Shown one piece after another: positions 1 through 16,478 of a DNA stretch of 64,000 nt. A program made the translations under genes and the position numbers. The stretch is from the NCBI GenBank assembly GCA_963768175.1, contig CAVYGQ010000001.1:446305-510304 (forward strand), given 5' to 3'. Below the pieces are notes generated by a model. It was not told the DNA's origin. It worked only from the letters and a program-made list of their open reading frames with translations, and searched no databases. Position 1 is the stretch's first letter, and each line of letters starts with the position of its first letter. This stretch comes from Candidatus Doudnabacteria bacterium. GTDB taxonomy: Bacteria; Patescibacteriota; Doudnabacteria; UBA920.

Positions 1-1297
1 TTTGGGTTTGCGCCGCTCCCCCGCTTGCGGAAGCCTGGCCGGCCTGAACTTCTGTTTTTACTTCTGTTCTTGCTTCCAAATTTCCTTTTGCGGAGCCCTC
101 AACTTCAACAGCTCCTTTAACACCCGCCCCTTGGGTTCCGGTCGCGGACATTTGCTCCGTTACAACTCCCCCAACATTAGTCTGGCCTGATGAAATAATC
201 CTACCGCTAATACCAGCCGTTCCGGGACTACCTCCTCCAATAATGCCACCGCCCCCTTGAACGGTTGACGATAAGGACGATTGGCCTGAAATTGCCGTAG
301 AAACTCCAGTGGGTAGAGGTGTCCCCTCTGCAGCAGAGGGGACACCTCTACTGGACCCGCCAACAGATCCGGATATTTCAACGGTTCCGCCGGTACTAAT
401 TGTCCTGGTTGTTTCCGCAGTTCCCCTCTGCGACACCTCGGTTGTTGATTCAGCCGTTCCCGATTCCCTAATGGTTTGCCCGCCAGTGGAAATTTCGGAT
501 GTGGAAGTTGCCGCGCCGCCTCCCGTTTCCTCAACTTCCTGCTGGATTTCCTCACTATAACCTCCACCCTCATCAACTGTTCCTCCGGATGAAACTTCTT
601 TTATATTAGTTGTGCTAGCCGTACCCGACTGGCTTACGGTTTTAGCTCCCACCGAGGAAACGCCGGTTGTTGATTTAAGCGCTCCTAAAGCAGCCCCGGC
701 AATCCCGCCCAAAACATCCCCCATGGCCCCCAGCATCAACTCCGTCGGTCCTGGTGTTACCGCTTTACCCTCACTGCTTTGTCCCGATGCCTGTTCCGCC
801 GCCTTTCGCTTTTTGGCTTGTTCTTCGGTTTCCTTCCCAAAAACCAAATAATGGGAGATTGTGCCGGAAAATTGGGGTTGGCTTTTACTGATAAGCCTGA
901 CAAAAACTGCGTTATTGTCGCCAATTGCTCCGGCAAGATCTTGAGGAATTATAAAACTTAAATATCCGGATTTCCCCAACCCAACCGAATGAGGATAAAA
1001 ATGAAAAATTTTATTTTCATGGCCCGCCCACAGCAAAAAAATCTCCTTATAAAGTTCAAGATCGCTGACATCAACCAATATTTCCGATCCGGCGTAGCAT
1101 CTTGCTCCCTTTACGTTTTTTGGGCCACTACCTACGGCAATGCTTTTTATGGGAATGGTGCCGGAAATTTTGGTAACTCCCGGAATAATCGGCCGGTTGG
1201 GATTACCCGAAACGGCGGATCTTTTTGATTGCGATCCGTTGCCGACGCTTTTGCCATCCACTTCATTTGGGTTTTGTGTTGGCGTAGGGGTTGCCAT
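1..1297 (-). CDS. Partial Gly/Ser/Thr-rich low-complexity secreted or surface protein; N-terminal 432 codons in window, 3' end off-window
   Basis: Manual translation of the minus strand gives an ATG at 1297 and an uninterrupted frame to position 1 (MATPTPTQNPNEVDGKSV...GGGIIGGGSPGTAGISG...). It is absent from the ORF track because there is no in-window stop. It contains the in-frame palindrome at 314..350 (RGVPSAAEGTPLP). Confidence 0.5.
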   Translation of the reverse strand, partial: MATPTPTQNPNEVDGKSVGNGSQSKRSAVSGNPNRPIIPGVTKISGTIPIKSIAVGSGPKNVKGARCYAGSEILVDVSDLELYKEIFLLWAGHENKIFHFYPHSVGLGKSGYLSFIIPQDLAGAIGDNNAVFVRLISKSQPQFSGTISHYLVFGKETEEQAKKRKAAEQASGQSSEGKAVTPGPTELMLGAMGDVLGGIAGAALGALKSTTGVSSVGAKTVSQSGTASTTNIKEVSSGGTVDEGGGYSEEIQQEVEETGGGAATSTSEISTGGQTIRESGTAESTTEVSQRGTAETTRTISTGGTVEISGSVGGSSRGVPSAAEGTPLPTGVSTAISGQSSLSSTVQGGGGIIGGGSPGTAGISGRIISSGQTNVGGVVTEQMSATGTQGAGVKGAVEVEGSAKGNLEARTEVKTEVQAGQASASGGAAQTQ

Positions 1298-1320
1298 AAA
1301 AATTAAAAACTTAACATTAA

Positions 1321-1400
1321 GGCGTCATCCTGAGCGGAGCGAAAGATCTCAAACCTAAATAAGAGATTCCTCGTTCATGCTACTTCCTCGGAATGACGCC
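1321..1400. repeat. MITE-like palindromic element, family D (terminal inverted repeat GGCGTCATCCTGAG ... CTCGGAATGACGCC)
   Basis: The termini are inverted repeats. Homologous copies occur at 5221, 17026, 18032, 58907 and half copies at 4269 and 22351. Confidence 0.7.
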
Positions 1401-1501
1401 AGGGATTTTGTTATTTAAACGGTAAGCGAGGGCTGTCCTTTGCTTAGGCATTTCCAAGAAAAGGACAGCCCTCTTCCGCGCGATTATTGTTATAGGGATT
1501 G

Positions 1502-3355
1502 TTACTTGTTAGCCAAACTTTCCTGGCTCTCCTGGATTTCCAAAAGCTGCTTGGGGTCGGTGGTAATAATCTGGTCTTCCACGTAGGACGCGTAAATTTT
1601 AATGGCCGCGTGTTTTAACCCCGCGAAAAATATCCCCTCGCCAACTTCGCTTTCAAGTAGCAGATATTTTTCGCCTTCGGTTAAAAAGAAAGTCTCGGCA
1701 ACTACGTTTATGGCCGCCGGGCTCTGCTTAAGCAGCATCTGGATGGAAGAGTTGGTAACTATCGGTTTGCCGTAAGGACTGGCCAGAAAATCGGCCACGT
1801 CCTGCGTAATGGTGGTCAAACCAAGATAATATTTGCGGGCGCGCTTGGCAATGCCGAACAGGAACCTCGCGCTGTCTTCGTGCTGCATCAAAATCCAGGC
1901 TTCGTCCACCGCCAAGATGCGCTTTTTAAGCTCTGAGCGCACCATATTCCAAATATAATTTAAAATAATATACATAGCTATAGGCCTTAACTCCTCTTCC
2001 AAATCGCGAATACTAAACACCACCAGCTGGTTGTTCAACACTACATTAGTCTGCTGGTTTAAAAGCCCGCCAAAAGTGCCTTCGGTAAATTTTGTCAGGC
2101 GCTGGCCTAAACTTTCCGCTCCGACCATATTGTTTAAAATTTCCACCAAATCGTTCATAGTCGGATATTCCAGGCCGCGGAAATCCGCCAAATCCGGCGT
2201 GACATCTTTTTTGGCGTAAGTCTGCCAAATCGCCTTATCCATCAGCGCTTCTTCCGTGGGGTTTAGCTTGCCTATCATCAAACTAAACAACCCCAAAAGG
2301 TTAATAACCGCGGTGCGCAAAACGTCGGCGTTGCTTTCACCTTCAATAGCCACAGGGAGGTCAAACGGGTTTATCCGCGAAGCCGAATTCAGCGATACGC
2401 TTAAATAAGTACCACCCACGGCCGCAGCCAAGTGCTGGTATTCGTTTTCCGGATCGACGATAATGACTTCGGTGCCGATCATCAAGCTGCGCAGCACTTC
2501 CAATTTTACGGCATACGATTTTCCGGCACCGGATTTGGCAAACACCACGGAGTTGGCGTTTTCCATGGCAAAACGGTCAAACAAAATCAGGCTGTTGTTG
2601 TGGCGGTTAATGCCGTATAAAATGCCGTCGTTACTGGTTAAATCCGACGACACGAAAGGAAAACAAGAAGACAAGGGGCTGGTATTCATATTGTTGGCTA
2701 CATCCAGTTCGTCCAGCCCGAGTGGCAAAGTGGAATTCAGCCCGTTTTGGGTTTGCATCAACGCGCGCTTGGTCACGATCAATTTGGAACCGAGCGAGCT
2801 CTCCAGGGTGCTGGAAAATTTATCCAGCTCCTTTAAGTCAGTGGCATAAATTGTAAAATACAAAGCAAAACGAAAATACTTTTCGGTACCCTGCATCAGG
2901 TTGTCCCGCAAACCTTCCACGTCTTTGTAGGCGGTCTCCAGCATCGGATCGCGCACCATGCCTTTTTCCTGGTTAATGGCCATCTGGCTACCGAGCTCCC
3001 CGACCTTGCTTTTAAGTTTTTTTAAAATGTCCGCCGAATCTATAGGGTAAATAAACATGGACAAATCCAGCGCGCCTTCGGCCTGGATAATAAAAGACAG
3101 CCAGTTGCTGGAGAGGAACCTTGGATAAGCCAGCACAAAAAAACTCCTGCCGAATTTGCCGTTAAGCTCAAAATGGGAGCTGTCAAATTTCAACGAAGCT
3201 GGGGCTATTAAATCTTTTAGCGTAGTTAAACCTTCGCGGTAGGTTCTGTCCAAATCCCCAAGACTTGAGCTCAAACTACGTTCGGTTTCGGCTTCTTTCA
3301 GGCTTTGTTTTCTTGCTTCCAGCTCTTGGGGAGTGATTTTTGAAAAAATGCTCAT
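1502..3355 (-). CDS. virB4: VirB4/TraC/CagE-family type IV secretion ATPase
   Basis: 617 aa with Walker A FAKSGAGKS and Walker B ILAVDEAW. The N-terminal domain is typical of Gram-positive VirB4 homologues. Confidence 0.8.
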   Translation of the reverse strand: MSIFSKITPQELEARKQSLKEAETERSLSSSLGDLDRTYREGLTTLKDLIAPASLKFDSSHFELNGKFGRSFFVLAYPRFLSSNWLSFIIQAEGALDLSMFIYPIDSADILKKLKSKVGELGSQMAINQEKGMVRDPMLETAYKDVEGLRDNLMQGTEKYFRFALYFTIYATDLKELDKFSSTLESSLGSKLIVTKRALMQTQNGLNSTLPLGLDELDVANNMNTSPLSSCFPFVSSDLTSNDGILYGINRHNNSLILFDRFAMENANSVVFAKSGAGKSYAVKLEVLRSLMIGTEVIIVDPENEYQHLAAAVGGTYLSVSLNSASRINPFDLPVAIEGESNADVLRTAVINLLGLFSLMIGKLNPTEEALMDKAIWQTYAKKDVTPDLADFRGLEYPTMNDLVEILNNMVGAESLGQRLTKFTEGTFGGLLNQQTNVVLNNQLVVFSIRDLEEELRPIAMYIILNYIWNMVRSELKKRILAVDEAWILMQHEDSARFLFGIAKRARKYYLGLTTITQDVADFLASPYGKPIVTNSSIQMLLKQSPAAINVVAETFFLTEGEKYLLLESEVGEGIFFAGLKHAAIKIYASYVEDQIITTDPKQLLEIQESQESLANK

Positions 3356-3362: not shown

Positions 3363-3565
3363 CCGATTCGGATTTACGGATTGTATCCGGATCAACGGAT
3401 ACCTGCGGATACTTTTTAGTAAGTTTTAAAATTATTTTTGGTTTAAATTATACCAGTTTCTTTTCATAAAACGACCTGCTTTTCTGCTTGCCTCTTATAT
3501 AAGTACCCGTGGTTATCTGTAAATCCGGATTGTCCCATCCGTATATCCGGATCGGGTTTATTCGG
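3363..3565. repeat. MITE-like element, family C (ATCCGGAT-containing arms at 3363..3412 and 3518..3565 are inverted copies of each other)
   Basis: Left arm is cggatttacggattgtatccggat. Right arm is its reverse complement, gtaaatccggattgtcccatccgtatatccggat. A related copy sits inside rsmA at 17587..17697. Confidence 0.55.
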
Positions 3566-4241
3566 AAATTTTAATGTCTTTCATCTGTGCCGGATCAATT
3601 AACGGGGCAGCGTCAAAATTATAGGAATTGTAATACAACTGGATAATCTCCTCGGTCTTTAGCCTGACACCCCTCACGCCAATGCCGGAAAGGTTAGAAA
3701 GTATCGCCATAACCCTTGTGTCCAATTTTTCTTTGGCTTTCTCAAAATTCTCTATTTTTTTGGCAATCTGTTTGGATTTTCCGCCGCCAAAAATGCGGGA
3801 AAAAAATCCTGCGGCGGGGGGAAAAATGCTCTCTCCCAAAGGAATTATGATATAAAAATTTTTATTCATAATGCTGGCGTTCTCAATAAGCCGGGCTATA
3901 AATTCCGTGTACTCAACGGTCTGAACCCTCAAAAGCTCGTTGGTTTGCTTTTCGGCCAATCCCTTGAGCTTTTCCAGGTAACCGCCAATTTCCATTTTGC
4001 GGCTTTGCATAAGAATTTGGACTGAGAAATCCAAGCTGTTTAAAAACCGCTGAAAATTAAAAATAATGGAATCCTGTTCGTCCTGGCTCTTTAAGTCAAA
4101 ATTGGTGCTGGACACGGACAAAATCGCCCTAAGTGTCCCGTCGTCCGCCACCACGGTGTCGTTTTTTATTTCACTAAGCCGTAAAAAACTTTGGGTGGTT
4201 TTTCCCAGCGGCTTTTTCTTGTTTTGCATTTCAAGCTTCAT
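3558..4241 (-). CDS. Hypothetical protein in the T4SS-like cluster
   Basis: The ORF track gives 3558..4298, but its first 19 codons (MAALGAQDDAT...) are the translation of a family-D repeat half copy. The start probably lies at the MKLEMQNKKK methionine. Confidence 0.5.
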   Translation of the reverse strand: MKLEMQNKKKPLGKTTQSFLRLSEIKNDTVVADDGTLRAILSVSSTNFDLKSQDEQDSIIFNFQRFLNSLDFSVQILMQSRKMEIGGYLEKLKGLAEKQTNELLRVQTVEYTEFIARLIENASIMNKNFYIIIPLGESIFPPAAGFFSRIFGGGKSKQIAKKIENFEKAKEKLDTRVMAILSNLSGIGVRGVRLKTEEIIQLYYNSYNFDAAPLIDPAQMKDIKISE

Positions 4242-4268
4242 AGTAATCGCAAATATACAAATAAGAGT

Positions 4269-4313
4269 GGCGTCATCCTGAGCCCCGAGTGCAGCCAAGG
4301 GGCGAAGGATCTC
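4269..4313. repeat. Family D repeat, half copy
   Basis: ggcgtcatcctgagccccgagtgcagccaaggggcgaaggatctc. Confidence 0.6.
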
Positions 4314-4596
4314 AAAATTCAGATGATAAGTCTTTCCATTCCGGGTTTATACTATTAATTAAGTTAATTTTCTTTTGCCTTGTCCAACCCTTTATTCTTT
4401 TCTCTTCCGCGATGGCTTCTAGTGCGGTTCCAAATTCTTTATAATAAACAAGTTTTGTTACATTATACTTTTTCGTAAAACCCTCTACTAACTTATTCTT
4501 ATGCTGATAATTCCTGTTTACGATACTATTGGTTATACCTGTATAAAGAACCGTATGAACTTTATTTGTCATTATGTAAACATAAAACGATTTCAT
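4312..4596 (-). CDS. Small GIY-YIG nuclease-family protein
   Basis: FYVYIMTN...LYTGIT...R...H motif pattern, 94 aa. Confidence 0.7.
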   Translation of the reverse strand: MKSFYVYIMTNKVHTVLYTGITNSIVNRNYQHKNKLVEGFTKKYNVTKLVYYKEFGTALEAIAEEKRIKGWTRQKKINLINSINPEWKDLSSEF

Positions 4597-4708
4597 AGTT
4601 TGAGATGCTTCACTTCGTTCAGCATGACGCCGTGAAATAGAATCACTTTACTCGATTTTTACTGTTATCCATTTTGTATTTTAATTTATTTTTGTATTTT
4701 CGCGATTA

Positions 4709-5155
4709 CTATCTCATTTTCCCCGCAATATCCTGTTCCTCCGAAACAGTTTTTCTTAACAACTCCTGGACTTCTTTTAGATGCGCCTGAGGGTCTTGGG
4801 GGACCGTAGCTTCAGCCTTAACGGGAGAAGAAAGCTGGGCGTCGGACATTTTACCGTTTGGCATCAGGGCGCGCGTTTCTTTATGGAAAATCAAAATCTT
4901 CGGGCTGGTAAAAAACTTTATAAAATTACCAATGCTGTTGTATACCGGCCGTCCGTTAATTTGGACAAAGGCCATGCCTAGAGCCGGCAAGCCAAAAAGC
5001 ACAAACAGGAAAACCGCGACTAAAATGCTCTTGGTGGCGGAAAAGCCCAAAAAAATAACAATGCCGGCGGCAAAAATTATGCCAAACTGTTTTATTGTCA
5101 AAGGCCCAATAATTTTATCTTCCACCTCGGTAAATTGTGGAACTGGAAATTGCAT
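4709..5155 (-). CDS. Small two-TM membrane protein, PrgI/VirB3-like T4SS component (tentative)
   Basis: VEDKIIGPLTIKQ motif followed by two hydrophobic helices. It lies beside virB4. Confidence 0.45.
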   Translation of the reverse strand: MQFPVPQFTEVEDKIIGPLTIKQFGIIFAAGIVIFLGFSATKSILVAVFLFVLFGLPALGMAFVQINGRPVYNSIGNFIKFFTSPKILIFHKETRALMPNGKMSDAQLSSPVKAEATVPQDPQAHLKEVQELLRKTVSEEQDIAGKMR

Positions 5156-5497: not shown

Positions 5498-6376
5498 TCA
5501 ACTTGTCTGTATTTTCGCCAACAAATCAGTAAACTTCTCAAACTCCTCTTTGGTCAAATAATCCCCTGTACCCTCGACATCTAAACTTTCAAAGTCGGGT
5601 TGCCCCGAGAGTAATTTTAAACCCGTGTTAATATAATTTTTATAAGTCTGGCTTTTTTCCAAATTAAAAATTACTTCAAAATACCCGTACTTGGCGACTA
5701 ACGACTTAATCTTTTTTGCCAAGGCGTCCAAAGGCCAAGCCTGTAACATCCGGTTTTCAAACACAGCCAGATCCTGCAAGCCGTTTATTGCCTGTCCATT
5801 TGACGCAACCGGCTTTGAAACCGGCGGCTCGTAGGTAGGCTGTTTTTCCAGTGGAAAATCTTGTCCGGGCAATTTTGAAAGGGAACTTGCAAAACTGGGC
5901 TTTTGCTGAAATGTTGACGGCTTTGCGGCTAACGGGGCAAGCGGCACAGCGGATACGGAGGGAAAAACGGTTTTTGGCTTTGGCGACACCGCTGGCGGAA
6001 CTTTTAATACGGGAGAGGCGGGCTTAACGGTCTGGGGGCTGACAAACGGCTTTTCCCTGATTGGAAAAAAAGGTTTTAGAGCCGCAGCCTGCCCTTTTTG
6101 ATCTTGCCTGATAAATGGTTTTTGTTCTATGATCTGTGATTTGTGATCTATGTTCTGTAATTTATGCCCCTCCTCTAACTCTAACTCCGGATGCCCGGGA
6201 GGCAGCTCTTTTTCCTGAAAAATTGATTTTAAATTAGATGCAAAAATTGACGGCTTCTTTTGGGCAAGCGGCTGCTGGATCTGCGAAGTGGTCTTGGGAG
6301 CCTCATATTTTATAGCGGGAATTTGACCGAATTTCCCTAAGTCTGGCAAATTCATTATGTGGCTCAACTTCGGCAT
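5498..6376 (-). CDS. Hypothetical Pro-rich protein
   Basis: 292-aa ORF co-oriented in the cluster. Confidence 0.5.
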   Translation of the reverse strand: MPKLSHIMNLPDLGKFGQIPAIKYEAPKTTSQIQQPLAQKKPSIFASNLKSIFQEKELPPGHPELELEEGHKLQNIDHKSQIIEQKPFIRQDQKGQAAALKPFFPIREKPFVSPQTVKPASPVLKVPPAVSPKPKTVFPSVSAVPLAPLAAKPSTFQQKPSFASSLSKLPGQDFPLEKQPTYEPPVSKPVASNGQAINGLQDLAVFENRMLQAWPLDALAKKIKSLVAKYGYFEVIFNLEKSQTYKNYINTGLKLLSGQPDFESLDVEGTGDYLTKEEFEKFTDLLAKIQTS

Positions 6377-6740: not shown

Positions 6741-6832
6741 CCATAATTCCTAACTCCTAACTCCTAACTCCTAACTCCTAACTCCTAACTCCTAACTCCT
6801 AACTCCTAACTCCTAACTCCTAACTCCTAACT
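6741..6832. repeat. Heptanucleotide microsatellite (ctaactc/taactcc) x 13
   Basis: Perfect tandem array overlapping the stop codon of the 6827..8185 gene. Confidence 0.9.
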
Positions 6833-8199: not shown

Positions 8200-11100
8200 T
8201 TAAATTGGCATCATATGGTCAATAAACAATTTTTCAGCTGCTGCTCTTTGTACCGGGGTCAAAGTTGATAATTTATTACCAGTTGGCAGGCGACCTGCCA
8301 CCGCTGCTATCTTACCAGTTACCTGGGCGGCAAAATCTGCCCTAGTCACTGCACGGCCTGCGATTGTAGCCGCATCAAAGGCGTTGCCTGCCAACGGTTG
8401 TAATTCTTTTCTTAATTCGGATATTTCTACAGGCGTTAACTTATAATCTTCATCTAGTCTACTAATTACGGTCATGGGGTTATATTTTTCCGAGTATTCG
8501 TCCCTAACTTTTTTGTATATTTCGTCCTTGATTGCGGTAACGTGTGTTACTGGCGCACGGGCAGTTGTAAAAGCAGAACGTATGTTTGCTTCTATTGTTG
8601 CCGGAGAACTTGCCCCTCTATAAACAGCATCAATCGCATTATCTATAACCTTACCTCCTCTTAAAGCGTCAGTTTCTTCCTTCTTTAATCCCAAAGTTTT
8701 GCTATCAATCACTTCAGTTGATACGGTCTTAATGACCGGGGTTACTGTTACTGTAGAGTCACCCAAATGAGCAACGGGGGTTGTTTTGCCGGCGGCATCC
8801 AGCTTTACCACCCTAATTCCTTTCACCTCAATAGGTTGCATATTGGTTAACTGCGCATACATGCTACGTACCAAATCCGGATTTTCTTCATACAAACTCT
8901 GGATACGCTTAACGTCAAGATCGTCTTTGACAATAACCGCTCCAGTGTTTTTATCTATATCATCACTTAAAATCCACTCCTTAGTTCTTCCTTGTGAGAA
9001 ACTCGCCTGCTGCAAAGTAGCGCCGTCAAACATAGACAAAACACCCCGTTGATATTCATCAAGCTCCCCACTGGTTCTTCCATACATTTGATCCTTAATT
9101 TCATTTACAGCGTCAATATTTCCACCTGCGTCCAGTTTCGCGCGGAGAGTCACCATATTATGTGGGGCAATTTGCGAGCGGGCACGCCCGCTGACTTTTT
9201 TCAGCTCGCCCACCGCATAATTAGTTTGCCAAGTATTTTTTAGCTTACCTCCCTTAATAGTTCTGCCTCCTACTCCTTTGGCATCGCCAACCAACTCCAT
9301 CCCCCGCTTAAACCTTTTTGAATCATTGTCATAATACGCATGCCCCAGATACTCATAGTGCCCTGTGGACTTGCCAAGTTCTTCAAGATCTTCAGCCATC
9401 AAGCGCTGGGCTTGTTCATCGTCGCCCAAATAACCGTACAAAAACCGGTTTAAAACTTCTGCGCTATAAAAAGTGCCATCGTCATCAGCATACTGGTCTG
9501 CAAAATGCTTTTTCCTAAGTAGGTCGTCCATATATCCTTGTTTGGCAGCTGCCAAGACAATAGCGCGGCGCCTTCTCTTGCCTTCTTCTCCGCCTAACTT
9601 TTCGGCATCTGCGGCCGCATCCATTAAACTTTCTTTACGCATGGTAGAATAGTCCTGAACCAAAGCATTTTCGTCTTTTCTTTCCGCAAATTGCCTATAA
9701 GGAATTTTTAACTTGCCCCTGGTTAAAAACCGTTCTGACATTTCACGCCCGCCTGCCGTAGCCGTGCCTTCTGCTTGATGCTTTAATTCCTCTGCGCGCT
9801 GTTGCCAGCCCTTAAAAAAAGCATCTGGGTTAGAAAGCAAAAATCCGGTTTTTTTCAAAAAGCCCGGTTTATGCTCGCCTTCCTGCTCTAAAAGCGAAGA
9901 ACCAATTTCCTGTCTCTTTCTGTTTACCCAGCCAACTCCTCTTCCAGCCAAAAACGCTGCACCCTGAAACGGAGCAAAGATTCCCTTTCTGGCTATGTCG
10001 GTTATCCCTTGGGCACCGTAGACGCCGGCCAAGGTGGCTACTTTTAAGGAGGCGATTAAAAAAACCAACAATAAAATATTACTTCCCAAGGTCACAATCA
10101 GGCTGGACAAACCGTTTTGTCCATTAAAAATGCTGGCGTTATTGGCCGCAATCTGCAATTGAGAATTGACAGTTGCATTGGTTGCCATTAAAGCTGCCAT
10201 GTTCAGGAAAAAGGCCATTATTGGTGTAAAAAAGGCGTATTTTAAAAACTCCTTCCACCATTTCTCCCTATACTGGGCCGTACTGGGCAAAACCCCAACG
10301 GCATAAGCCACGGGAGAAATCATTAGCAAAAGCCATAACATTACAATCCGGATTACCAAAAACGCCGCAATAGCGCCAAACACGGCAAGCGAGCCCAAGC
10401 TCATAGCCACCCAAAATACAGACGCAACTAATCCTCCAATACTACTATTTACCGCCGATGCGTTAGCGTTCTGCTGCCCTTGGAGGTAGTTCATTAATGT
10501 ACTATTATTTGTAGTCATTAATTTATAAGCCAACCCGTTTACTGACGCAGCGTCGGCAGGCAAAAACTGCGCCTGCACGGTGTCCGCCACGGCTAAAATA
10601 GACTGGCCAATGACCAAACTAAAGTTAATCAGCAAAGCCGCGATAATTAGTTGCACCAATAAATGCCGCGCTTTATAACTTTCCACGCGGAACAACGTGG
10701 CCATGGCAATAATAATCAATGCCACTATAAAAAATATATCGCACAGATTCCGAATGGTTTCCCAACCCGAATAAATAACCGCGACAAAAGTATCCTGATA
10801 AGCGTGAATACCAAGCACAGCAACAATCACTGGTGAAACAAGCAGGAAAAAAATTCCGTAAATAAGCTGCTGAATTGAAGCTAAGACAAAAGCGACTATC
10901 TCGTTTAATAATTGCATCAGCTTGTCGGTTACCCCCGGACCTGCATTGAGATTGTTTCCGGAACCTACGGCGCTGCCATATCCGGGAACGCATCCAGAAG
11001 GTATATTGGCTCCGGTGGTCGGATCGGTACCGGTGCAAGCAAGAGGCGGGCCTGTAACTTTATTGGCGTTTGCCTGGGTGTCATAAAGCTGGACATAAAA

Positions 11101-11850
11101 ACTATTACCACCTTTGAAATAAGTATTATAGGCGTGCGCGCCGGTAAGGGAATTGAAGTCTGTTGATAAATTTTGAAAATCAATTTCGGGGTAAGCATAA
11201 GCCTGGTTCGTTCCGCTATTTGGATCGGTCCCGTTATTAAGTTGGGTTATGCCTAAATCGGTAAAATTGGTCTTATCAATAGTAAATGTGTAATCAAAAA
11301 CAGGCTGCCCGGCTTGAAAGGTTGGGCCGCTAATTTTATTATTACTCTGAGTCGCATCAAAGTAGTTGTTTGGGTTACTGCACACATTGGAAATTAAACC
11401 AGTGCCTATGGGCCCCAATGACTGATTTCCACAAATTTGGGAAGTATTACTAGGCGTTAACACTGCTCCAAAACCTAACAGCTTTCCTGTATCCGGTGTT
11501 CCGCCTGGAGGTGTTGTGGTGCCGATATTAGTACTGTTAAAAGTCAGTGTCGGGGGACTTACAAGGGTAACTATAACCTCTATCGTAGAACTTCCATCCT
11601 GTTGGCCAAGACGAACGAAATTTGTAGTCTGGCCATTAATCTTTATGTCTGTTTTTAAAACTATGTCATTAAAATTACAAGTTTGTGCATTACCTTGGCT
11701 GGTGCCGCAGGTGCTATCAGCGGAAACGGTTATGGGAGTAAGTATCAACAAAACAAAAACCGCTAAAATAAAAGAAAACCACGGCCAGAGGCATTTGGCG
11801 GCAGTTTTGGTTGGGTTGGATTTATTTAAAACTTTTGGTTTCAAATGCAA
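8200..11850 (-). CDS. Giant polytopic membrane protein, VirB6/TrbL-like T4SS channel candidate
   Basis: 1216 aa. N-terminal signal/TM, then about 270 aa Thr/Gly/Asn-rich ectodomain, then about 8 TM helices (residues about 320-640), then about 560 aa charged cytoplasmic tail. Confidence 0.4.
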   Translation of the reverse strand: MHLKPKVLNKSNPTKTAAKCLWPWFSFILAVFVLLILTPITVSADSTCGTSQGNAQTCNFNDIVLKTDIKINGQTTNFVRLGQQDGSSTIEVIVTLVSPPTLTFNSTNIGTTTPPGGTPDTGKLLGFGAVLTPSNTSQICGNQSLGPIGTGLISNVCSNPNNYFDATQSNNKISGPTFQAGQPVFDYTFTIDKTNFTDLGITQLNNGTDPNSGTNQAYAYPEIDFQNLSTDFNSLTGAHAYNTYFKGGNSFYVQLYDTQANANKVTGPPLACTGTDPTTGANIPSGCVPGYGSAVGSGNNLNAGPGVTDKLMQLLNEIVAFVLASIQQLIYGIFFLLVSPVIVAVLGIHAYQDTFVAVIYSGWETIRNLCDIFFIVALIIIAMATLFRVESYKARHLLVQLIIAALLINFSLVIGQSILAVADTVQAQFLPADAASVNGLAYKLMTTNNSTLMNYLQGQQNANASAVNSSIGGLVASVFWVAMSLGSLAVFGAIAAFLVIRIVMLWLLLMISPVAYAVGVLPSTAQYREKWWKEFLKYAFFTPIMAFFLNMAALMATNATVNSQLQIAANNASIFNGQNGLSSLIVTLGSNILLLVFLIASLKVATLAGVYGAQGITDIARKGIFAPFQGAAFLAGRGVGWVNRKRQEIGSSLLEQEGEHKPGFLKKTGFLLSNPDAFFKGWQQRAEELKHQAEGTATAGGREMSERFLTRGKLKIPYRQFAERKDENALVQDYSTMRKESLMDAAADAEKLGGEEGKRRRRAIVLAAAKQGYMDDLLRKKHFADQYADDDGTFYSAEVLNRFLYGYLGDDEQAQRLMAEDLEELGKSTGHYEYLGHAYYDNDSKRFKRGMELVGDAKGVGGRTIKGGKLKNTWQTNYAVGELKKVSGRARSQIAPHNMVTLRAKLDAGGNIDAVNEIKDQMYGRTSGELDEYQRGVLSMFDGATLQQASFSQGRTKEWILSDDIDKNTGAVIVKDDLDVKRIQSLYEENPDLVRSMYAQLTNMQPIEVKGIRVVKLDAAGKTTPVAHLGDSTVTVTPVIKTVSTEVIDSKTLGLKKEETDALRGGKVIDNAIDAVYRGASSPATIEANIRSAFTTARAPVTHVTAIKDEIYKKVRDEYSEKYNPMTVISRLDEDYKLTPVEISELRKELQPLAGNAFDAATIAGRAVTRADFAAQVTGKIAAVAGRLPTGNKLSTLTPVQRAAAEKLFIDHMMPI

Positions 11851-12224: not shown

Positions 12225-12749
12225 CTAAGACAACCCAAATTTCTTTTTTAAGTCCTTGTCGTTATCCATCTCTTCTACTTTTATTATCCTTATATAGCCG
12301 TCCAGTCCCGTTTCCAATAAATATTTTAAGGCTTCCCGATTTAAAGGATAAGGGTTAATATACACGCTGGCCTGTAATTTGCGGAAGTTGTTCCTTTTAA
12401 GCAAATCTCTTAGCTGATTTCTTTGCTGCTTGGCAGATTCCGGAATGTCAAATACCACCATTCTCCATTTACCGTCCCATTTACCGGCAACGGGCATTTT
12501 GGCTTTCGCCAATAAAATTTCCAGCTCTCCTTTTTTTGTGAGTTGTAAAAATCTCTTGCCATTCTTGCTTACAAATTTTATGGAACCGCGCTTTTTTAAG
12601 TTATAAGCAGCGCTCCTGTAAGAGTTATAACTTCTCCCGAATAAAAATTTACTTCTCAGAGCGTAAGGCGAGAACGCCATCATGGTTCCAACCGTAGCGT
12701 CAAGGGCGAACAAAATAGCATTGATGATTGTCGATTCCTTTTTTGGCAT
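12225..12749 (-). CDS. PaaX-family-like transcriptional regulator (wHTH plus WDGKW..FDIPE..LR..L...F..LQ.SVY core)
   Basis: 174 aa. The motif pattern W.G.W..V.FD.PE..R..R..LR..L...GF..L..SV resembles the PaaX family. Confidence 0.45.
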   Translation of the reverse strand: MPKKESTIINAILFALDATVGTMMAFSPYALRSKFLFGRSYNSYRSAAYNLKKRGSIKFVSKNGKRFLQLTKKGELEILLAKAKMPVAGKWDGKWRMVVFDIPESAKQQRNQLRDLLKRNNFRKLQASVYINPYPLNREALKYLLETGLDGYIRIIKVEEMDNDKDLKKKFGLS

Positions 12750-12903: not shown

Positions 12904-14850
12904 TCAGCGAAGATTAAGTTGGGTTGCGGGACCGCGGGTTTGGATAACGGGCTTAGCGGTAAACACCCCGGCCACGGCCGGAGCTACAGAAGGCGAATTA
13001 AATCCCATCGTGCCTTCAATAACGTTTACTGTTCCTAAAACAACTGTGGAAACTAGATTTTCATTAGAGTCGTATATTTGGGCAGCTAAAGTATTAGACC
13101 CGACGGTAAAATTACTATCTATGGTGATAGTGTAGCCGCTCATCTGGTCGGCGGCTACGTCCTGGTAATTTTGCCCATTAACGACAAACGTTACGGTTCC
13201 GTCCGTAGGAAGGTTGGATGACGAAATGGGAATCTGGTCTCCCATACTATACTGGCTCTTTAGGCCTCCACTAACTGATATTTGGGGCGTAAGGGTGCTT
13301 GTGGCAATGTTATTACCGGAACCCTGCGCGATAAAACCAACCGTGGCATTAACGGCTTTATTTTCATTAATCAATGCGGTTTTGGCTCCGGCGCTGGCGC
13401 CGCCCAAAACCATACTCGTGCCGATTTGGGAAACTATGCCGGAAATGATATTCACAAAAGCCGGCAGGTTGCTACTATTGTATTGGGTTAAATCGCCCCC
13501 AACGGCTTTAAACATTGCGTCAATGCCCTGATTAACCAAAACCGCAGGTGAAGATATTGCTTCACACAAAACTATTGCCGGGTTGGTGTCTGTGCTGCCG
13601 GAGCTAGAGGTTAAAGCTTGCGGGGCATTGGTCCACGCCAGTGTAGCCGCATCTACGTCAGCTTGGGCCTTAGCGAGATCGGCAGCCGGGACATTCTTCC
13701 CTGCTTGCACGGCAGCCGTAAGGTTGTCCAGTACATTTTGGCGGTCCAGCATTTTGGCTTCCAAAGCTTGCGCTTGGGCGTCAATTTGTTTTTGCTGGGT
13801 CAAGGCCCCGGCGCAATTTACCGGCGCCTTATAACCGCTGCCCTGGCTAATCTGCTGTTGGGTAGTGGCCAAAGAAGCGGCGCGCGACTGGTTCACGCCG
13901 CCAACATAAGCTGTTTGCAAATAATACGGGTTGGCGCTGGGACTACCCATGGCCGCCATCTGTCCGTAAAAATTCGGGCTGGCCGGATTAATGGCCGACG
14001 GGTTAAAGCCCAAAGCCGCATTGGCGGCCACAAATATTCCGGGCTGGATTTGCGTGCGGAATAAAGGATTGCTTAAAATCGCGCGCGCCATTAGCTGGTC
14101 CTGCGCGTTAGGAAAATTCTCGCGGATAAACTGGTTATCATACATCAAGGTGGCCGCGGAATCTATATACTGCTTTAAGTTGGTAATTTTATAGTTTTGG
14201 ACCAAATGAGTAACCAAAGCATCGGCAATGGCTTTACTGGTTTGCAGCAAAATGCTAATCAGTAAAGTTTTCCAAAATCCTTGGTTGGCGTTATCTATCT
14301 GGGCCACCAAGTCGCCCTGCTTTTTTGTGTAAGTCGCGATGCTAGATTTAATCTGGGCTTCGTCTTGCTCCTTCATATTGCTGACATAAAGGCTGGTTGC
14401 CGCGAGTTTGGCAGCGGCAAGAGTTGTTAATTGCAAGTTGGCACAAATCAAAAAAATGCTATAAGCATCATTCAAAACTTCCATAGCTGCCAACCCCGTA
14501 CTATTCCCCGTTGGGCTTAAGACAGCTAAAGTAGAGTTTGCAACATTAGTTTGTACAAAAATCTGCTCTGCCACTTGCACTTTTGTGAGGCAAGCTTTAT
14601 AAGCTATAAATGGCGCGGACAATCCCGCTATTTCCGAGATATTTAGCGCCATACCAGCCAATCCTCCGGGATTATTACCGGCATTGGCATCGGCACTCGG
14701 TACTGCTTGCGCTAAAACAATCCCCGGCCAAAAGGCAAGCTGGCTGAAAATTAAAAAACCGGCAATGATTTTTTTTATTTTACCCCGCACCACTTTTTGA
14801 TGGTTATTAGGATTACTCAATTTTAAAATTTGTTCAGAATATTTTGCCAT
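12904..14850 (-). CDS. Hypothetical secreted protein with signal/TM anchor and Ala/Gln-rich coiled-coil segment
   Basis: 648-aa ORF with a hydrophobic N-terminus. Confidence 0.5.
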   Translation of the reverse strand: MAKYSEQILKLSNPNNHQKVVRGKIKKIIAGFLIFSQLAFWPGIVLAQAVPSADANAGNNPGGLAGMALNISEIAGLSAPFIAYKACLTKVQVAEQIFVQTNVANSTLAVLSPTGNSTGLAAMEVLNDAYSIFLICANLQLTTLAAAKLAATSLYVSNMKEQDEAQIKSSIATYTKKQGDLVAQIDNANQGFWKTLLISILLQTSKAIADALVTHLVQNYKITNLKQYIDSAATLMYDNQFIRENFPNAQDQLMARAILSNPLFRTQIQPGIFVAANAALGFNPSAINPASPNFYGQMAAMGSPSANPYYLQTAYVGGVNQSRAASLATTQQQISQGSGYKAPVNCAGALTQQKQIDAQAQALEAKMLDRQNVLDNLTAAVQAGKNVPAADLAKAQADVDAATLAWTNAPQALTSSSGSTDTNPAIVLCEAISSPAVLVNQGIDAMFKAVGGDLTQYNSSNLPAFVNIISGIVSQIGTSMVLGGASAGAKTALINENKAVNATVGFIAQGSGNNIATSTLTPQISVSGGLKSQYSMGDQIPISSSNLPTDGTVTFVVNGQNYQDVAADQMSGYTITIDSNFTVGSNTLAAQIYDSNENLVSTVVLGTVNVIEGTMGFNSPSVAPAVAGVFTAKPVIQTRGPATQLNLR

Positions 14851-14881: not shown

Positions 14882-15739
14882 TTATTGGGAAACATCGCCA
14901 TTGTTAAAAGTATTTAAAAGATTTTGAGAATTGTCGGCGCTTGCGGAATTGCCCGAAGCAGCCGACTGCTGGATAGGCTGGCCGTTTGAGTCAACATACA
15001 AAGAAGAGCTCGGGTCCAAAGATCCAAACTTTTGCGCAATGGAAACATTCTCGGTATTTAAGTCCTGCTGGCTTTTTATAAACTGCATCAAATTTTGGCT
15101 AACCAAAGTCGGGTTGCTGTCGGCCTGCGAAAAATTTTGCAACAGGTTAATTGCGGAAGTGTACTGGATGATTTTTAACTTTTGCAGTTTAACCAAACTC
15201 TGCGGCACGCTAAGCTTTTGCAACGCGTCGCGGACGCCAATTAATTTTTGTGCCTGCTGGTCAATTTGGCTTTGGTCGTCGGAAGTCAAAGCTGTTTGAA
15301 AGGCGGCGTTATCTACGGGATTGAGTTCTATTTTCTGCGCCTGAGAAAAATATTTTGTAATCGCGTCGCCCGAGTCTGGCACCTGGCTGACCTGGACGCT
15401 GTCTAAAGACAGCTGCACGTCTTGCGTGCTTGCCGCCAAAACCGATCCGGCGTCCACCGGAGAAACCGTGCCGTCGTCGTTAATGATGCTCGGACCTTGG
15501 TCGGTGCTGGCGCCTAAAACTTGTGGCTGTTGGTCGCTAATCGGAGGAACGTATGCATAATAGTGCGGCACATTCTGGTCGCCTTGTGCCGCATTCTTTT
15601 TAAAACTAAAAAGATCCGGCTTTTCCATCCACGACATTCCCAAGACCAAAACCATGGTCATCATTACGGCGCCAAAATGCCCCCAATGAATTGGCGACTC
15701 AATTTGAGGTGGTTGGGTTTCGAAATTTAAATCACTCAT
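14882..15739 (-). CDS. Hypothetical single-pass membrane protein, Gln/Ser-rich
   Basis: 285-aa ORF with an N-terminal TM. Confidence 0.5.
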   Translation of the reverse strand: MSDLNFETQPPQIESPIHWGHFGAVMMTMVLVLGMSWMEKPDLFSFKKNAAQGDQNVPHYYAYVPPISDQQPQVLGASTDQGPSIINDDGTVSPVDAGSVLAASTQDVQLSLDSVQVSQVPDSGDAITKYFSQAQKIELNPVDNAAFQTALTSDDQSQIDQQAQKLIGVRDALQKLSVPQSLVKLQKLKIIQYTSAINLLQNFSQADSNPTLVSQNLMQFIKSQQDLNTENVSIAQKFGSLDPSSSLYVDSNGQPIQQSAASGNSASADNSQNLLNTFNNGDVSQ

Positions 15740-15767
15740 ATTTTTACAAAAATAATGTTAAATAATT

Positions 15768-16286
15768 TTAAAAAACACAAGGAAGGGCGCTGGTGCCGAT
15801 TCCATACAGACCATATGGCGCATAAAAAAATCCAGGGAAAACCGGGTATGGCAAATTACAACTGGCAAAAGGCACCGGCAAATATTCTCCCATAACGCAA
15901 ACCCCCGGCGTAACTAAATTTTCATAAAGAAAAATAAGCGAATAAGGAGGCATGGTGTAAATACCAATAAGAGGAGGGAGTAAGATTCCTTGGGCTGCAT
16001 TATAAATACTGGTAACGCTATTATCAATAATCGTATGCGCGGGACACACAGCCGGAGCGGGAGGAACAATAGGCGGCACGACTGAAATAATTCTTCCCCC
16101 AAACGGTATGGCGCCGGGCGTGGCAAAAGCTTGCGGAGCGCTCATGAAAATGCTAAAAAGCAAACCGCCGGTTATTAAAAACCCAACCATCATCACCAAC
16201 AAAATTCTGCTAGTTTGATTTTGCCTCATAAATTTTATTTTTTGTTTGGGTATTTTTTGTTTGGGTAAACAAAGACGGCTTAACAA
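15768..16286 (-). CDS. Hypothetical Pro-rich membrane protein. The start may be the internal MRQNQ methionine
   Basis: 172-aa ORF with a TM helix. Confidence 0.4.
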   Translation of the reverse strand: MLSRLCLPKQKIPKQKIKFMRQNQTSRILLVMMVGFLITGGLLFSIFMSAPQAFATPGAIPFGGRIISVVPPIVPPAPAVCPAHTIIDNSVTSIYNAAQGILLPPLIGIYTMPPYSLIFLYENLVTPGVCVMGEYLPVPFASCNLPYPVFPGFFYAPYGLYGIGTSALPCVF

Positions 16287-16478
16287 AATAAGCCAAAATA
16301 AAAGAGAATTTGCCTGTAATTATTTTTTTCCCTGTTAAATGCGGCTTTTTGCTGCCCCGCTTCGCGGGATTTAACAGGGTGAATTTTTGTTTCGAAGATC
16401 TTTTCTTAACTTTCTATATATATTATAGCACATCTGGAAAAATTTTGCAAGAGATGGTACAATTTTGAAGTAAACGGG

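What the first reader, a model, noticed from the sequence alone, without database searches (positions are those of the whole stretch)
1..16300. Gram-positive-type T4SS-like locus without a relaxase or coupling protein in view
A VirB4 ATPase (1502..3355), a PrgI/VirB3-like two-TM protein (4709..5155) and a 1216-aa polytopic VirB6-like protein with large ecto- and cytoplasmic domains (8200..11850) are co-oriented on the minus strand. So are several Pro/Gln-rich secreted or membrane proteins and an off-window Gly-rich surface protein, and a LysM-CHAP hydrolase (21004..22173) lies nearby. No VirD4-like coupling protein, relaxase or integrase is recognisable in the window. This is the pattern reported for the non-conjugative T4SS-like machines of CPR/Saccharibacteria-type episymbionts, which are thought to handle DNA uptake or host interaction. 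Almost every protein in the locus carries repeat insertions, so it is evolving quickly.
Basis: inference. Interest (0 to 1): 0.6.

Follow-up and report, generated by a model that had tools for sequence, protein, structure and literature searches.

The report
Patescibacterial type IV secretion gene cluster

Summary
On the minus strand of 1..16300 lie an intact VirB4 ATPase, a TrsD-like protein (the 246-aa ORF; probably 227 aa from the ATG at 4241), a PrgI/VirB3 protein and a 1216-aa 'extended' VirB6. Poorly conserved secreted, membrane or low-complexity proteins accompany them. I found no coupling protein, relaxase or integrase in the 64-kb window. None lies within 10 kb downstream of virB4 in the two closest relatives either.

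The organism is Candidatus Doudnabacteria. Gene order is conserved in 80 related genomes, next to housekeeping genes (ksgA, uvrD, recG, radA). VirB4 is 60-96% identical across them, and the accessory proteins only 25-45%.

This matches the Patescibacteria-clade T4SS described in 2023-2025: derived from monoderm conjugation systems, TrsD next to VirB4, no relaxase, essential for epibiotic growth in a cultured Saccharibacterium. Its substrate is still unknown.

Local details:
- PrgI, TrsD and VirB4 are colinear with a single VirB3-VirB4 fusion protein.
- No VirB2-like pilin gene is in view.
- One accessory gene is split by an in-frame stop beside a palindromic insert.
- A GIY-YIG gene nested in a palindromic element sits between prgI and trsD.

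'Repeat insertions in almost every protein' is only partly true.

The parts
2..1297 (-). N-terminal 432 aa of a Gly/Ser/Thr-rich protein immediately downstream of virB4. It runs off the left edge of the window.
   Evidence: The ORF was read and has no Pfam family. Relatives carry weakly similar proteins of 881 aa (L029) and 1071 aa (L001) in the same position (23-37% identity). It contains an in-frame 38-nt palindrome at 312-349.
1502..3355 (-). VirB4-family ATPase, 617 aa, of the monoderm (MPF_FATA / CD1110) type
   Evidence: Family and structure matches are. Walker A and B motifs are intact and are conserved in 74-75 of 75 full-length relatives. The protein is 60-96% identical in 80 Patescibacteria loci.
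3558..4241 (-). TrsD-like protein, a homologue of the VirB4 N-terminal domain. It is 227 aa from the ATG; the ORF extends to a TTG at 4298.
   Evidence: It matches NCBIfam VirB4_plasma positions 95-233 (1.7e-8), TrsD (1.6e-5) and CD1110 positions 20-136. Of 24 homologues, 24 hit VirB4_plasma, 23 hit TrsD and 22 hit CD1110. A Pontibacillus counterpart matches at 1.5e-27.
4269..4631 (.). Palindromic element with GGCGTCATCCTGAG...GAAGGATCTC arms, carrying a 94-aa GIY-YIG gene (4312..4596, -), inserted between prgI and trsD
   Evidence: Pfam GIY-YIG scores 5.8e-16. The arms were found. The element is absent from this position in L029 and L001, and the GIY-YIG gene is found in only 1 of 80 loci.
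4709..5155 (-). PrgI / VirB3-like small membrane protein, 148 aa
   Evidence: Pfam PF12666 scores 45.7 bits against a cutoff of 27. It aligns to VirB4_plasma positions 30-117 and is present in 71 of 80 loci.
5498..6619 (-). One conserved accessory gene split into two ORFs, 6377..6619 (80 aa) and 5498..6376 (292 aa), by a single in-frame TAA at 6377-6379 next to a 42-nt palindromic insert
   Evidence: Both ORFs are in the same frame. The homologue is a single 394-aa ORF in L001 (6962..8146). The insert at 6391-6432 is identical to 7231-7272 in p452. There is no Pfam family and no TM segment.
6827..8185 (-). 452-aa accessory protein with a conserved N-terminal part and a low-complexity C-terminal part containing octamer repeats and a palindrome
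   Evidence: It has no Pfam or NCBIfam family. Weak homologues lie in the same position in 33 of 80 loci. The repeats are at 7287-7364 and 7231-7272.
8200..11850 (-). Extended VirB6/TrbL-like polytopic membrane protein, 1216 aa. From N to C it has an N-terminal TM, a beta-rich ectodomain (about residues 60-265), a helical membrane bundle (about 307-655) and a hydrophilic C-terminal region of about 570 aa.
   Evidence: The membrane bundle is the conserved part, with invariant W363, R501, P513 and W531.
12225..12749 (-). PaaX_M / Cas2-like wHTH protein, a probable regulator and an optional insert, flanked by 36-nt palindromes at 12180-12215 and 12779-12814
   Evidence: Pfam PaaX_M scores 4.6e-22. 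It is present in only 3 of 80 loci, in the same position in L013. The palindromes were found and are not present in relatives.
12904..14850 (-). 648-aa protein with an N-terminal signal/anchor, long helices and a C-terminal Ig/FN3-like domain
   Evidence: 46 homologues were found, none with a Pfam domain. The AlphaFold model has mean pLDDT 65, and only the C-terminal beta-sandwich finds PDB matches. It lies upstream of virB6 in 24 of 80 loci.
14882..16286 (-). Two co-oriented, tightly spaced ORFs: a 285-aa Gln-rich protein (14882..15739) with a modestly hydrophobic N-terminal stretch that may be a membrane anchor, and a 172-aa Pro-rich protein with a signal peptide (15768..16286)
   Evidence: The gaps to the next gene are 28 and 31 bp. 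Neither has a significant family match. The 172-aa protein has a predicted hydrophobic segment at residues 25-51. The 285-aa protein has none at the threshold used, and its anchor is read from the sequence only. Conservation could not be judged, because the related loci end before this position.
21004..22173 (+). LysM-CHAP peptidoglycan hydrolase, a candidate VirB1 analogue whose link to the locus is not established
   Evidence: Pfam CHAP scores 1.3e-16 and LysM 8.5e-16. It is on the opposite strand and separated from the locus by DUF192, ksgA and uvrD.

Best explanation
This is the chromosomal type IV secretion system of a Candidatus Doudnabacteria (Patescibacteria/CPR) cell. It is a monoderm-type (MPF_FATA-derived) machine that is not part of a conjugative element.

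**Shown here**
- Three consecutive genes (prgI, trsD, virB4) together reproduce, in order, the VirB3 part, the N-terminal part and the ATPase part of a single VirB3-VirB4 fusion protein.
- The ATPase has intact Walker motifs and is strongly conserved.
- An extended VirB6 supplies the polytopic membrane component.

**Inferred mechanism**
- PrgI anchors TrsD and the VirB4 hexamer at the membrane.
- VirB4 powers assembly and substrate passage through a VirB6-based channel.
- The VirB6 ectodomain, the 648-aa helical/Ig-like protein, the small secreted proteins and the variable Gly-rich protein downstream of virB4 form the fast-evolving, cell-wall-spanning and host-contacting part.
- The roughly 570-aa hydrophilic tail of VirB6 is a candidate cytoplasmic docking site.

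**By analogy with the cultured Saccharibacterium Southlakia epibionticum**
There the homologous cluster is essential for growth on the host. By that analogy, the machine most likely serves host interaction by moving protein or other macromolecules across the cell envelope, rather than plasmid or ICE conjugation. The substrate and the direction of transport are not known.

The confidence of 0.55 is for this functional reading. That the locus is a T4SS core of the Patescibacteria type is about 0.9.
For: - **Core components:** VirB4; PrgI; TrsD; VirB6.
- **Colinearity with one fusion protein:** on the Mbov_0397-type VirB4 model, PrgI covers positions 30-117, TrsD 95-233 and VirB4 292-893.
- **Taxon and synteny:** 80 loci from Doudnabacteria and other Patescibacteria share the order p648 / VirB6 / p452 / p80-p292 / PrgI / TrsD / VirB4 / variable protein. 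ksgA and uvrD lie upstream in some loci; RadA and RecG lie downstream.
- **No conjugation genes:** none in the window and none downstream in relatives.
- **No sign of a mobile island:** no tRNA borders the locus. GC content is 0.444 in the locus and 0.460 in the rest of the window.
- **Contrast with a real conjugative module:** in an Embleya plasmid the T4CP and a relaxase-type gene follow virB4 directly.
- **Literature:** PMC12102498 (a Patescibacteria VirB4 clade inside MPF_FATA; TrsD, PrgI and VirB6 near virB4; relaxase absent; ksgA and dnaA nearby), PMC10633639 (T4SS genes essential in Tn-seq; no recognisable coupling protein or relaxase) and PMC12857230 (review; extended VirB6 proteins).
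Against: - No substrate, effector or pilin was identified. No VirB2-like two-TM ORF is in the window, although such pilins are frequent in other classes.
- No VirB8-like component was recognised.
- The query VirB6 is below Pfam's own threshold, and the structural match is moderate (E 7e-3).
- Functional inference rests on one cultured Saccharibacterium from a different class.
- A coupling protein may exist elsewhere in the genome, which I could not see.
- One accessory gene is split by a stop codon, and selfish elements have entered the operon, so full functionality in this strain is not proven.
Confidence: 0.55

Rival explanations
1. It is a DNA (or RNA) uptake machine. On this reading it is a T4SS used in the import direction, like Helicobacter ComB or the archaeal Ced system, feeding incoming nucleic acid to recombination proteins encoded nearby.
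For: - Like ComB, it lacks both relaxase and coupling protein.
- Recombination and repair genes surround the cluster: uvrD and recO in the window, radA and recG downstream in relatives.
- PMC12102498 notes comF, recG and radA next to the T4SS in class ABY1.
- A 2026 preprint (10.64898/2026.06.21.733656) reports host RNA acquisition and possible T4SS pili in a cultivated member of the phylum.
Against: - The CedB match is far below threshold (41 bits against a cutoff of 700).
- No ComB-type or Ced-type partners were seen.
- In S. epibionticum, competence depends on ComEC and type IV pili, whereas the T4SS is essential independently of ComEC (PMC12857230, summarising PMC10633639).
- ksgA, uvrD and recG are ordinary housekeeping neighbours.
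Confidence: 0.15
2. It is an adhesion or pilus-assembly apparatus only. On this reading the machine builds or displays a surface structure for host attachment and translocates nothing into the host.
For: - Several extracellular or surface-type proteins are encoded with it: the VirB6 ectodomain, p648 with an Ig-like domain, and the Gly-rich protein.
- These are the fastest-evolving parts.
- VirB2-like pilin arrays are common in other Patescibacteria (PMC12102498).
Against: No pilin-like gene is in the 64-kb window. No adhesin domain was recognised beyond generic Ig/FN3-like folds.
Confidence: 0.15
3. It is an ordinary conjugative ICE or plasmid module whose relaxase and coupling protein lie just outside the window.
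For: The closest non-CPR VirB4 proteins are in plasmids of Bacillota and Actinomycetota (29-37% identity). The left edge of the window cuts the cluster.
Against: - In the two nearest relatives, the 10 kb beyond virB4 encodes a surface protein, a PD40-like protein, RadA, a DksA-like protein and RecG. There is no relaxase or T4CP, and the same holds across the family.
- Synteny with housekeeping genes is conserved in 80 genomes.
- There is no integrase, flanking tRNA or GC shift.
Confidence: 0.04
4. It is a decaying relic. On this reading the cluster is being eroded by repeats and selfish genes and no longer functions in this strain.
For: - An in-frame stop splits the p80/p292 gene.
- A GIY-YIG element and palindromic elements lie between the operon genes.
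- Low-complexity inserts occur in p452.
Against: - All core ORFs are intact, and the VirB4 catalytic motifs are present.
- VirB4 is 85-96% identical to close relatives.
- The stop is followed at once by an ATG (TAAATG), which is compatible with two coupled ORFs.
Confidence: 0.06

Closest known systems
Patescibacteria-clade T4SS (e.g. Southlakia epibionticum SEML1_0006-0019; survey in PMC12102498)
   Same: - The host phylum is the same and the cluster is chromosomal.
- It has a monoderm-type VirB4 with an adjacent TrsD homologue, a PrgI/VirB3 and a VirB6.
- There is no nearby relaxase or coupling protein.
- ksgA is nearby.
- The accessory proteins diverge quickly.
   Different: - The class is different (Doudnabacteria).
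- No VirB2-like pilin array and no hydrolase directly downstream of virB4 are in view.
- It has lineage-specific partners: p648, p452, p80-p292 and a 1216-aa extended VirB6.
- Selfish elements have been inserted in the operon.
Gram-positive conjugative T4SS of the pGO1/pSK41 (Trs), pIP501 (Tra) and CD1110 types (MPF_FATA)
   Same: - It shares the VirB3-like / TrsD / VirB4 triad in the same order.
- VirB4 passes the NCBIfam CD1110 cutoff.
- A Pontibacillus megaplasmid cluster has the same PrgI-TrsD-VirB4 order, with a large protein downstream.
   Different: Those systems have a T4CP, a relaxase and oriT and transfer DNA. In an Embleya plasmid, for example, the T4CP and a replication-relaxation protein follow virB4 directly. 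Here that position holds a variable Gly-rich protein.
Extended VirB6 proteins (as reviewed in PMC12857230)
   Same: It has five or more membrane helices plus a large hydrophilic C-terminal domain. The membrane bundle resembles R388 TrwI/VirB6.
   Different: It adds a beta-rich N-terminal ectodomain of about 250 aa. The C-terminal region has no recognisable family.
Relaxase-less, T4CP-less T4SSs that import DNA (Helicobacter ComB; archaeal Ced)
   Same: A VirB4-family ATPase works without relaxase or coupling protein. Recombination genes are nearby in relatives.
   Different: None of the ComB outer-membrane parts or Ced partners were found. The CedB model match is far below its cutoff. Competence in cultured Patescibacteria uses ComEC and type IV pili (PMC12857230).

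Membership tests
Type IV secretion system (VirB4-based) | VirB4-family ATPase with intact nucleotide-binding motifs | tested here: met
   NCBIfam CD1110 scores 356.9 bits against a cutoff of 325. PDB 4ag5 matches at E 6.6e-45. Walker A and B motifs are present.
Type IV secretion system (VirB4-based) | VirB3-like small membrane partner | tested here: met
   Pfam PrgI scores 45.7 bits against a cutoff of 27.
Type IV secretion system (VirB4-based) | VirB6/TrbL-like polytopic membrane protein | tested here: met
   The query alone is sub-threshold (19.8 vs 25.9 bits). However, 27 of 36 homologues hit TrbL (best 1.5e-8), and the five best PDB fold matches are TrwI/VirB6.
Type IV secretion system (VirB4-based) | VirB8-like bitopic component | tested here: inconclusive
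   No HMM hit was found in any locus protein. The 285-aa protein has only a weakly hydrophobic N-terminal stretch and was not modelled. PMC12102498 also finds VirB8 rarely in this phylum.
Type IV secretion system (VirB4-based) | Dedicated cell-wall hydrolase (VirB1 analogue) in the cluster | tested here: inconclusive
   A LysM-CHAP gene is present but lies about 4.7 kb away on the other strand, behind ksgA and uvrD. Whether this linkage is conserved could not be assessed.
Conjugative element (ICE or plasmid MPF module) | Relaxase (MOB family) linked to the T4SS | tested here: not met
   None was found among the window ORFs or downstream of virB4 in relatives.
Conjugative element (ICE or plasmid MPF module) | VirD4/TcpA-type coupling protein | tested here: not met
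   None is in the window or in the relatives' flanks (same calls). The rest of the genome is not testable here, and PMC12102498 reports distant VirD4-like genes in most Patescibacteria.
Conjugative element (ICE or plasmid MPF module) | Integrase, attachment site or tRNA boundary, or a compositional island | tested here: not met
   The only tRNAs are at 28.5 and 43.1 kb. GC is 0.444 in the locus and 0.460 elsewhere. Chromosomal synteny is conserved.
Patescibacteria-clade T4SS (PMC12102498) | Encoded in a Patescibacteria chromosome | tested here: met
   80 related loci were found, from Candidatus Doudnabacteria and 'Patescibacteria group' MAGs. The neighbours are housekeeping genes.
Patescibacteria-clade T4SS (PMC12102498) | VirB4 falls in the monophyletic Patescibacteria clade nested in MPF_FATA | tested here: inconclusive
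   The result is consistent with this. The best curated model is the Firmicutes CD1110 family, and the nearest plasmid VirB4s come from Bacillota and Actinomycetota at 29-37% identity. No phylogeny with the published reference set was built.
Patescibacteria-clade T4SS (PMC12102498) | TrsD homologue adjacent to virB4 | tested here: met
   It is present in 77 of 80 loci directly upstream of virB4.
Patescibacteria-clade T4SS (PMC12102498) | VirB2-like pilin gene or array near virB4 (frequent, not universal) | tested here: not met
   No small signal-peptide-plus-two-TM ORF was found in the 64-kb window. None of the locus proteins scanned hit a pilin-type family.
DNA-import T4SS (Ced / ComB) | CedB-type ATPase or ComB partners | tested here: not met
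   The CedB model scores 41.4 bits against a cutoff of 700. No other Ced or ComB family hit was found.

The most novel reading that the evidence does not exclude
In Doudnabacteria this machine is a pilin-less, coupling-protein-independent variant. On this reading the ~570-aa cytoplasmic tail of the extended VirB6 takes over substrate docking, and the system works in the import direction. It would bring host nucleic acids into the cell for the RadA, RecG, RecO and UvrD proteins encoded around it. Its host-facing parts would be diversified by in-frame palindromic insertions.
Probability: 0.08. Interest if true: 0.8.

Novelty: new member of a known kind. Interest (0 to 1): 0.3.

Why it matters
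The Patescibacteria T4SS is one of the few machines shown to be essential for the epibiotic lifestyle of these ultra-small bacteria, and its substrate is still unknown. This locus does not change that picture.

It does give a clean Doudnabacteria example with several useful features:
- The VirB3, TrsD and VirB4 genes map in order onto a single fusion protein.
- The VirB6 is very large.
- No pilin gene is nearby.
- There is a set of conserved but unannotated partners (p648, p452, p80-p292).

These are concrete targets for anyone trying to find what the machine moves. The conservation gradient, from VirB4 at 76% to the accessory proteins at 25-45%, points to which parts probably face the host.

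Tried and rejected
- **Source contig.** Exact-sequence look-ups for VirB4, TrsD and the VirB6-like protein found nothing. PrgI returned only a 1.2-kb contig. I could not read past the left edge, so I used the two closest relatives instead (L001, L029).
- **Profile searches against PDB sequences.** TrsD, p648 and the VirB6 family gave nothing significant.
- **Fold search with the p648 model.** Only the C-terminal Ig/FN3-like domain matched. The helical part had no match and low confidence.
- **Promoter and terminator scans.** Counts were no higher than in shuffled sequence, so I did not define transcription units from them.
- **The 36-nt palindrome flanking the PaaX-like gene.** I considered it as an operator shared with relatives, but it is absent from all 80 loci.
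- **Heptamer repeats in p80 as a phase switch.** I considered whether they could fuse p80 to p292. I rejected this because the two ORFs are already in the same frame and are separated by a stop codon, not a frameshift.
- **Empty-site comparison for the GIY-YIG element against L029.** This failed because the spacers are too diverged.
- **ICE hypothesis.** Rejected on the evidence listed under the rival explanations.

Full report
**1. What is in the sequence**

Positions 1..16300 carry a run of co-oriented minus-strand ORFs.

- **VirB4 (1502..3355).** This is a secure call.
  - It scores 356.9 bits on NCBIfam conju_CD1110, above the curated cutoff of 325.
  - It hits Pfam P-loop_TraG at 7e-27.
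  - It matches the solved VirB4 ATPase domain 4ag5 at E 6.6e-45, and R388 TrwK more weakly.
  - Walker A (AKSGAGKS, 273-280) and Walker B (ILAVDE, 480-485) are intact. They are conserved in 74-75 of 75 full-length relatives.
- **PrgI (4709..5155).** It passes Pfam's PrgI threshold (45.7 vs 27 bits).
- **TrsD-like protein (3558..4298).**
  - It matches the N-terminal part of VirB4 models: VirB4_plasma positions 95-233 (1.7e-8) and CD1110 positions 20-136. It also matches the TrsD/TraD family at 1.6e-5.
  - All 24 relatives tested hit VirB4_plasma, 23 hit TrsD and 22 hit CD1110.
  - Relatives start at the equivalent of the ATG at 4241, so the protein is probably 227 aa.
- **Colinearity.** On the Mbov_0397-type VirB3-VirB4 fusion model, PrgI covers positions 30-117, TrsD 95-233 and VirB4 292-893. 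The three consecutive genes therefore reproduce one fusion protein in order.

**2. The VirB6 assignment**

- The 1216-aa protein alone is below Pfam's TrbL cutoff (19.8 vs 25.9 bits, E 7.5e-4).
- It has 93 homologues, many with precomputed TrbL-type domains, and one source names one of them 'type IV secretion system protein'.
- 27 of 36 aligned homologues hit TrbL at E <= 0.01 (best 1.5e-8).
- The conserved part is the membrane bundle. The ectodomain and the C-terminal region vary.
- An AlphaFold model of residues 1-700 (mean pLDDT 76, and above 85 over most of the bundle) shows three parts: an N-terminal helix, a beta-rich domain at about 60-265, and long helices from 307 to 655.
- The five best Foldseek matches in the PDB are TrwI/VirB6 chains of the R388 T4SS (E 7e-3 to 0.17, prob 0.98-1.00, about 280-310 aligned columns, TM 0.39-0.49 on the target).
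- I accept it as an 'extended VirB6' in the sense of the review PMC12857230.
- The hydrophilic C-terminal region of about 570 aa is Lys/Arg/Asp/Glu-rich and follows a Lys/Arg-rich stretch, so it is probably cytoplasmic. That is inference. It has no family match.

**3. The other locus proteins**

None of the following has a significant family match.

- **p648** has a signal/anchor sequence. Its model is of modest confidence (pLDDT 65) and shows long helices plus a C-terminal Ig/FN3-like sandwich. Only the sandwich finds PDB matches.
- **p172** has an N-terminal hydrophobic segment.
- **p285** has only a modestly hydrophobic N-terminal stretch, below the threshold I used.
- **p292, p452 and p80** have no hydrophobic segment.
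- **ORFs 6377..6619 and 5498..6376** are in the same frame, separated by a single TAA. In the relative L001 the two parts form one 394-aa ORF.
- **The PaaX_M/Cas2-like gene** (Pfam 4.6e-22) is present in only 3 of 80 related loci.
- **The LysM-CHAP hydrolase** is real. It sits on the other strand beyond ksgA and uvrD, so its connection to the machine is open.

**4. No conjugation genes**

- Every sizeable ORF in the remaining 48 kb is housekeeping or of unknown function. Examples are KsgA, UvrD, RecO, H+-PPase, MnmA, HisRS, PEP carboxylase, glutamine synthetase and ProABC.
- There is no T4CP, relaxase or integrase.
- The only tRNAs are at 28.5 and 43.1 kb.
- GC content does not differ between the locus and the rest of the window (0.444 vs 0.460).
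- I could not fetch the source contig.
- In the two closest relatives (VirB4 95-96% identical), the 10 kb beyond virB4 encode an 881-1071-aa variable protein, a PD40-like protein, RadA, a DksA-like protein and RecG.
- Clustering all ORFs from the 80 loci gives the same picture.
- By contrast, an Embleya plasmid with a 37%-identical VirB4 has a T4CP and a replication-relaxation protein directly after it.

**5. Taxon and conservation**

- VirB4 relatives (60-96% identity) come from Candidatus Doudnabacteria and other Patescibacteria MAGs.
- Gene order is conserved: p648 / (PaaX) / VirB6 / p452 / p80-p292 / PrgI / TrsD / VirB4 / variable protein. ksgA and uvrD lie upstream in several loci.
- Median identity to the window proteins falls in this order: VirB4 76%, TrsD 57%, PrgI 45%, VirB6 37%, p292 33%, p648 27% and p452 26% (best segments).
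- The engine is therefore conserved, and the extracellular and accessory parts evolve fast.

**6. Comparison with what is known**

- PMC12102498 surveyed 3,035 Patescibacteria genomes and reports the following.
  - VirB4 is present in 2,417 of them, mostly in one clade nested in the monoderm MPF_FATA class.
  - TrsD is the commonest partner, and PrgI and VirB6 lie nearby.
  - Relaxases are almost absent, and T4CP-like genes are usually far from virB4.
  - The cluster tends to lie close to dnaA and ksgA.
  - VirB2-like pilin arrays occur in many classes.
- PMC10633639 showed by Tn-seq that the cluster is essential for epibiotic growth of Southlakia epibionticum. It noted the lack of a recognisable coupling protein and relaxase.
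- PMC12857230 reviews these systems.
- The present locus fits this description.
- The nearest non-CPR VirB4s are in Bacillota and Actinomycetota replicons at 29-37% identity.
- A Pontibacillus megaplasmid carries a matching cluster: a pilin-like protein, a 779-aa membrane protein, then PrgI (1.2e-8), TrsD (1.5e-27) and VirB4 (8.4e-119), followed by a large hydrolase. No relaxase is annotated within 14 kb.

**7. Mechanism**

- Shown: the components and their homologies.
- Inferred:
  - PrgI anchors TrsD and VirB4 at the membrane.
  - VirB4 energises assembly and transport through a VirB6 platform.
  - The VirB6 ectodomain and the variable secreted proteins reach through the wall to the host.
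- The substrate is unknown.
- Protein or other macromolecule transfer in host interaction is the best-supported reading (about 0.55).
- Nucleic-acid import and adhesion-only roles remain possible.
- A conjugative element and a dead relic are both unlikely.

**8. The 'repeat insertion' remark**

This is partly true, and the repeats form distinct classes.

- **(a) Palindromic MITE-like elements.**
  - Their structure is GGCGTCATCCTGAG...GAAGGATCTC / GAGATCCTTC...CTCAGGATGACGCC.
  - There are 14 matches to the terminal motif in the window against 0.12 expected, mostly as inverted pairs between genes.
  - One pair encloses the GIY-YIG gene between prgI and trsD.
  - Among the 80 loci, only the closest relative, L029, has the motif.
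- **(b) A 42-nt palindrome.** The copies in p80 and p452 are identical, and a related copy lies in MnmA.
- **(c) A 38-nt palindrome.** It is in frame in the surface protein and in PfkB, and hairpin relatives lie between genes.
- **(d) TCCGGAT/TCGGAA-type octamer arrays.**
  - They occur in p452 and UvrD, and similar TCCGGAT-type runs lie in the trsD-virB4 spacer.
  - One also forms a roughly 30-aa KsgA insertion that is absent from five orthologues.
- **(e) Heptamer tandem arrays.** They start at or just after stop codons and are the dominant tandem-repeat class in the related loci.

I found no such inserts in VirB4, TrsD, PrgI, p648 or p285.

**9. Verdict**

This is a new member of a known kind, of moderate to low interest in itself. 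It offers several concrete leads: the split VirB3-TrsD-VirB4 module, the extended VirB6 tail, the unannotated conserved partners, and the repeat families.

Noticed in passing
window 4269-4631. Further copies at 1321-1400, 5221-5364, 17026-17099, 18032-18124 and 58907-58998, with a single arm at 22351.: This is a family of 80-140-bp palindromic elements with GGCGTCATCCTGAG termini and an inner GAAGGATCTC inverted repeat. The window has 14 matches to the terminal motif against 0.12 expected. One full-length copy carries a 94-aa GIY-YIG gene in its loop. This suggests an autonomous element with MITE-like derivatives. Among the 80 related loci, only the closest relative (L029) has the motif. A literature search found no description of such a bacterial element.
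   Followed up: partly
window 312-349 (surface protein), 46810-46847 (PfkB), 6391-6432 (p80), 7231-7272 (p452), 33690-33731 (MnmA), 17579-17692 (KsgA), 18750-18956 and 19323-19424 (UvrD): Short palindromes and octamer arrays sit in frame inside protein-coding genes, including housekeeping enzymes. This is reminiscent of the Rickettsia palindromic elements. The KsgA insert of about 30 aa is absent from five orthologues. The p80 and p452 copies are identical over 42 nt.
   Followed up: partly
window 6739-6832 and 5456-5495; also L001 11901, L004 11847, L005 2533, L009 10271, L020 6373: Heptanucleotide tandem repeats of 5-13 copies begin at or within a few bases of stop codons. In the window they are (GGAGTTA)x13 at the p452 stop and (TTCATCC)x6 after the p292 stop. 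Period-7 arrays account for 58 of about 99 tandem arrays in the 80 related loci, and many sit directly after the virB4 stop. Their function is unknown.
   Followed up: partly
window 12180-12215, 12779-12814, 47179-47214: A 36-nt near-perfect palindrome, TGTTAGCATAAAATGCGGCCGCATTTTATGCTAACA, flanks the PaaX/Cas2-like gene on both sides and recurs after the PfkB gene. The upstream copy contains a TTGACA-18-TATACT promoter-like match. It is not found in the relatives.
   Followed up: partly
window 27753-29342: This is a low-GC stretch (0.365 over 28-30 kb). It holds a T5orf172/MUG113-domain gene (27753..28481), tRNA-Gln (28532-28605) and a second small GIY-YIG gene (29044..29316). The GIY-YIG gene is bracketed by its own 27-nt inverted repeats at 29009-29035 and 29316-29342.
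   Followed up: no
window 57361-60145: A PIG-L deacetylase and a GT4 glycosyltransferase overlap next to an unannotated 270-aa ORF. From memory the layout resembles bacillithiol or mycothiol-type thiol biosynthesis genes, which would be unexpected in a CPR genome. Only Pfam domains were checked.
   Followed up: no
L082 (Pontibacillus sp. ALD_SL1 megaplasmid NZ_CP062975.1, 351801-361354): A Bacillota replicon typed as non-mobilizable carries this gene order: a pilin-like (Mbov_0395 family) gene, a 779-aa membrane protein, PrgI, TrsD, VirB4 and a 1050-aa M23 hydrolase. No relaxase or T4CP is annotated within 14 kb, and the cluster lies next to flagellar genes. It may be a non-CPR counterpart of the relaxase-less arrangement.
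   Followed up: partly
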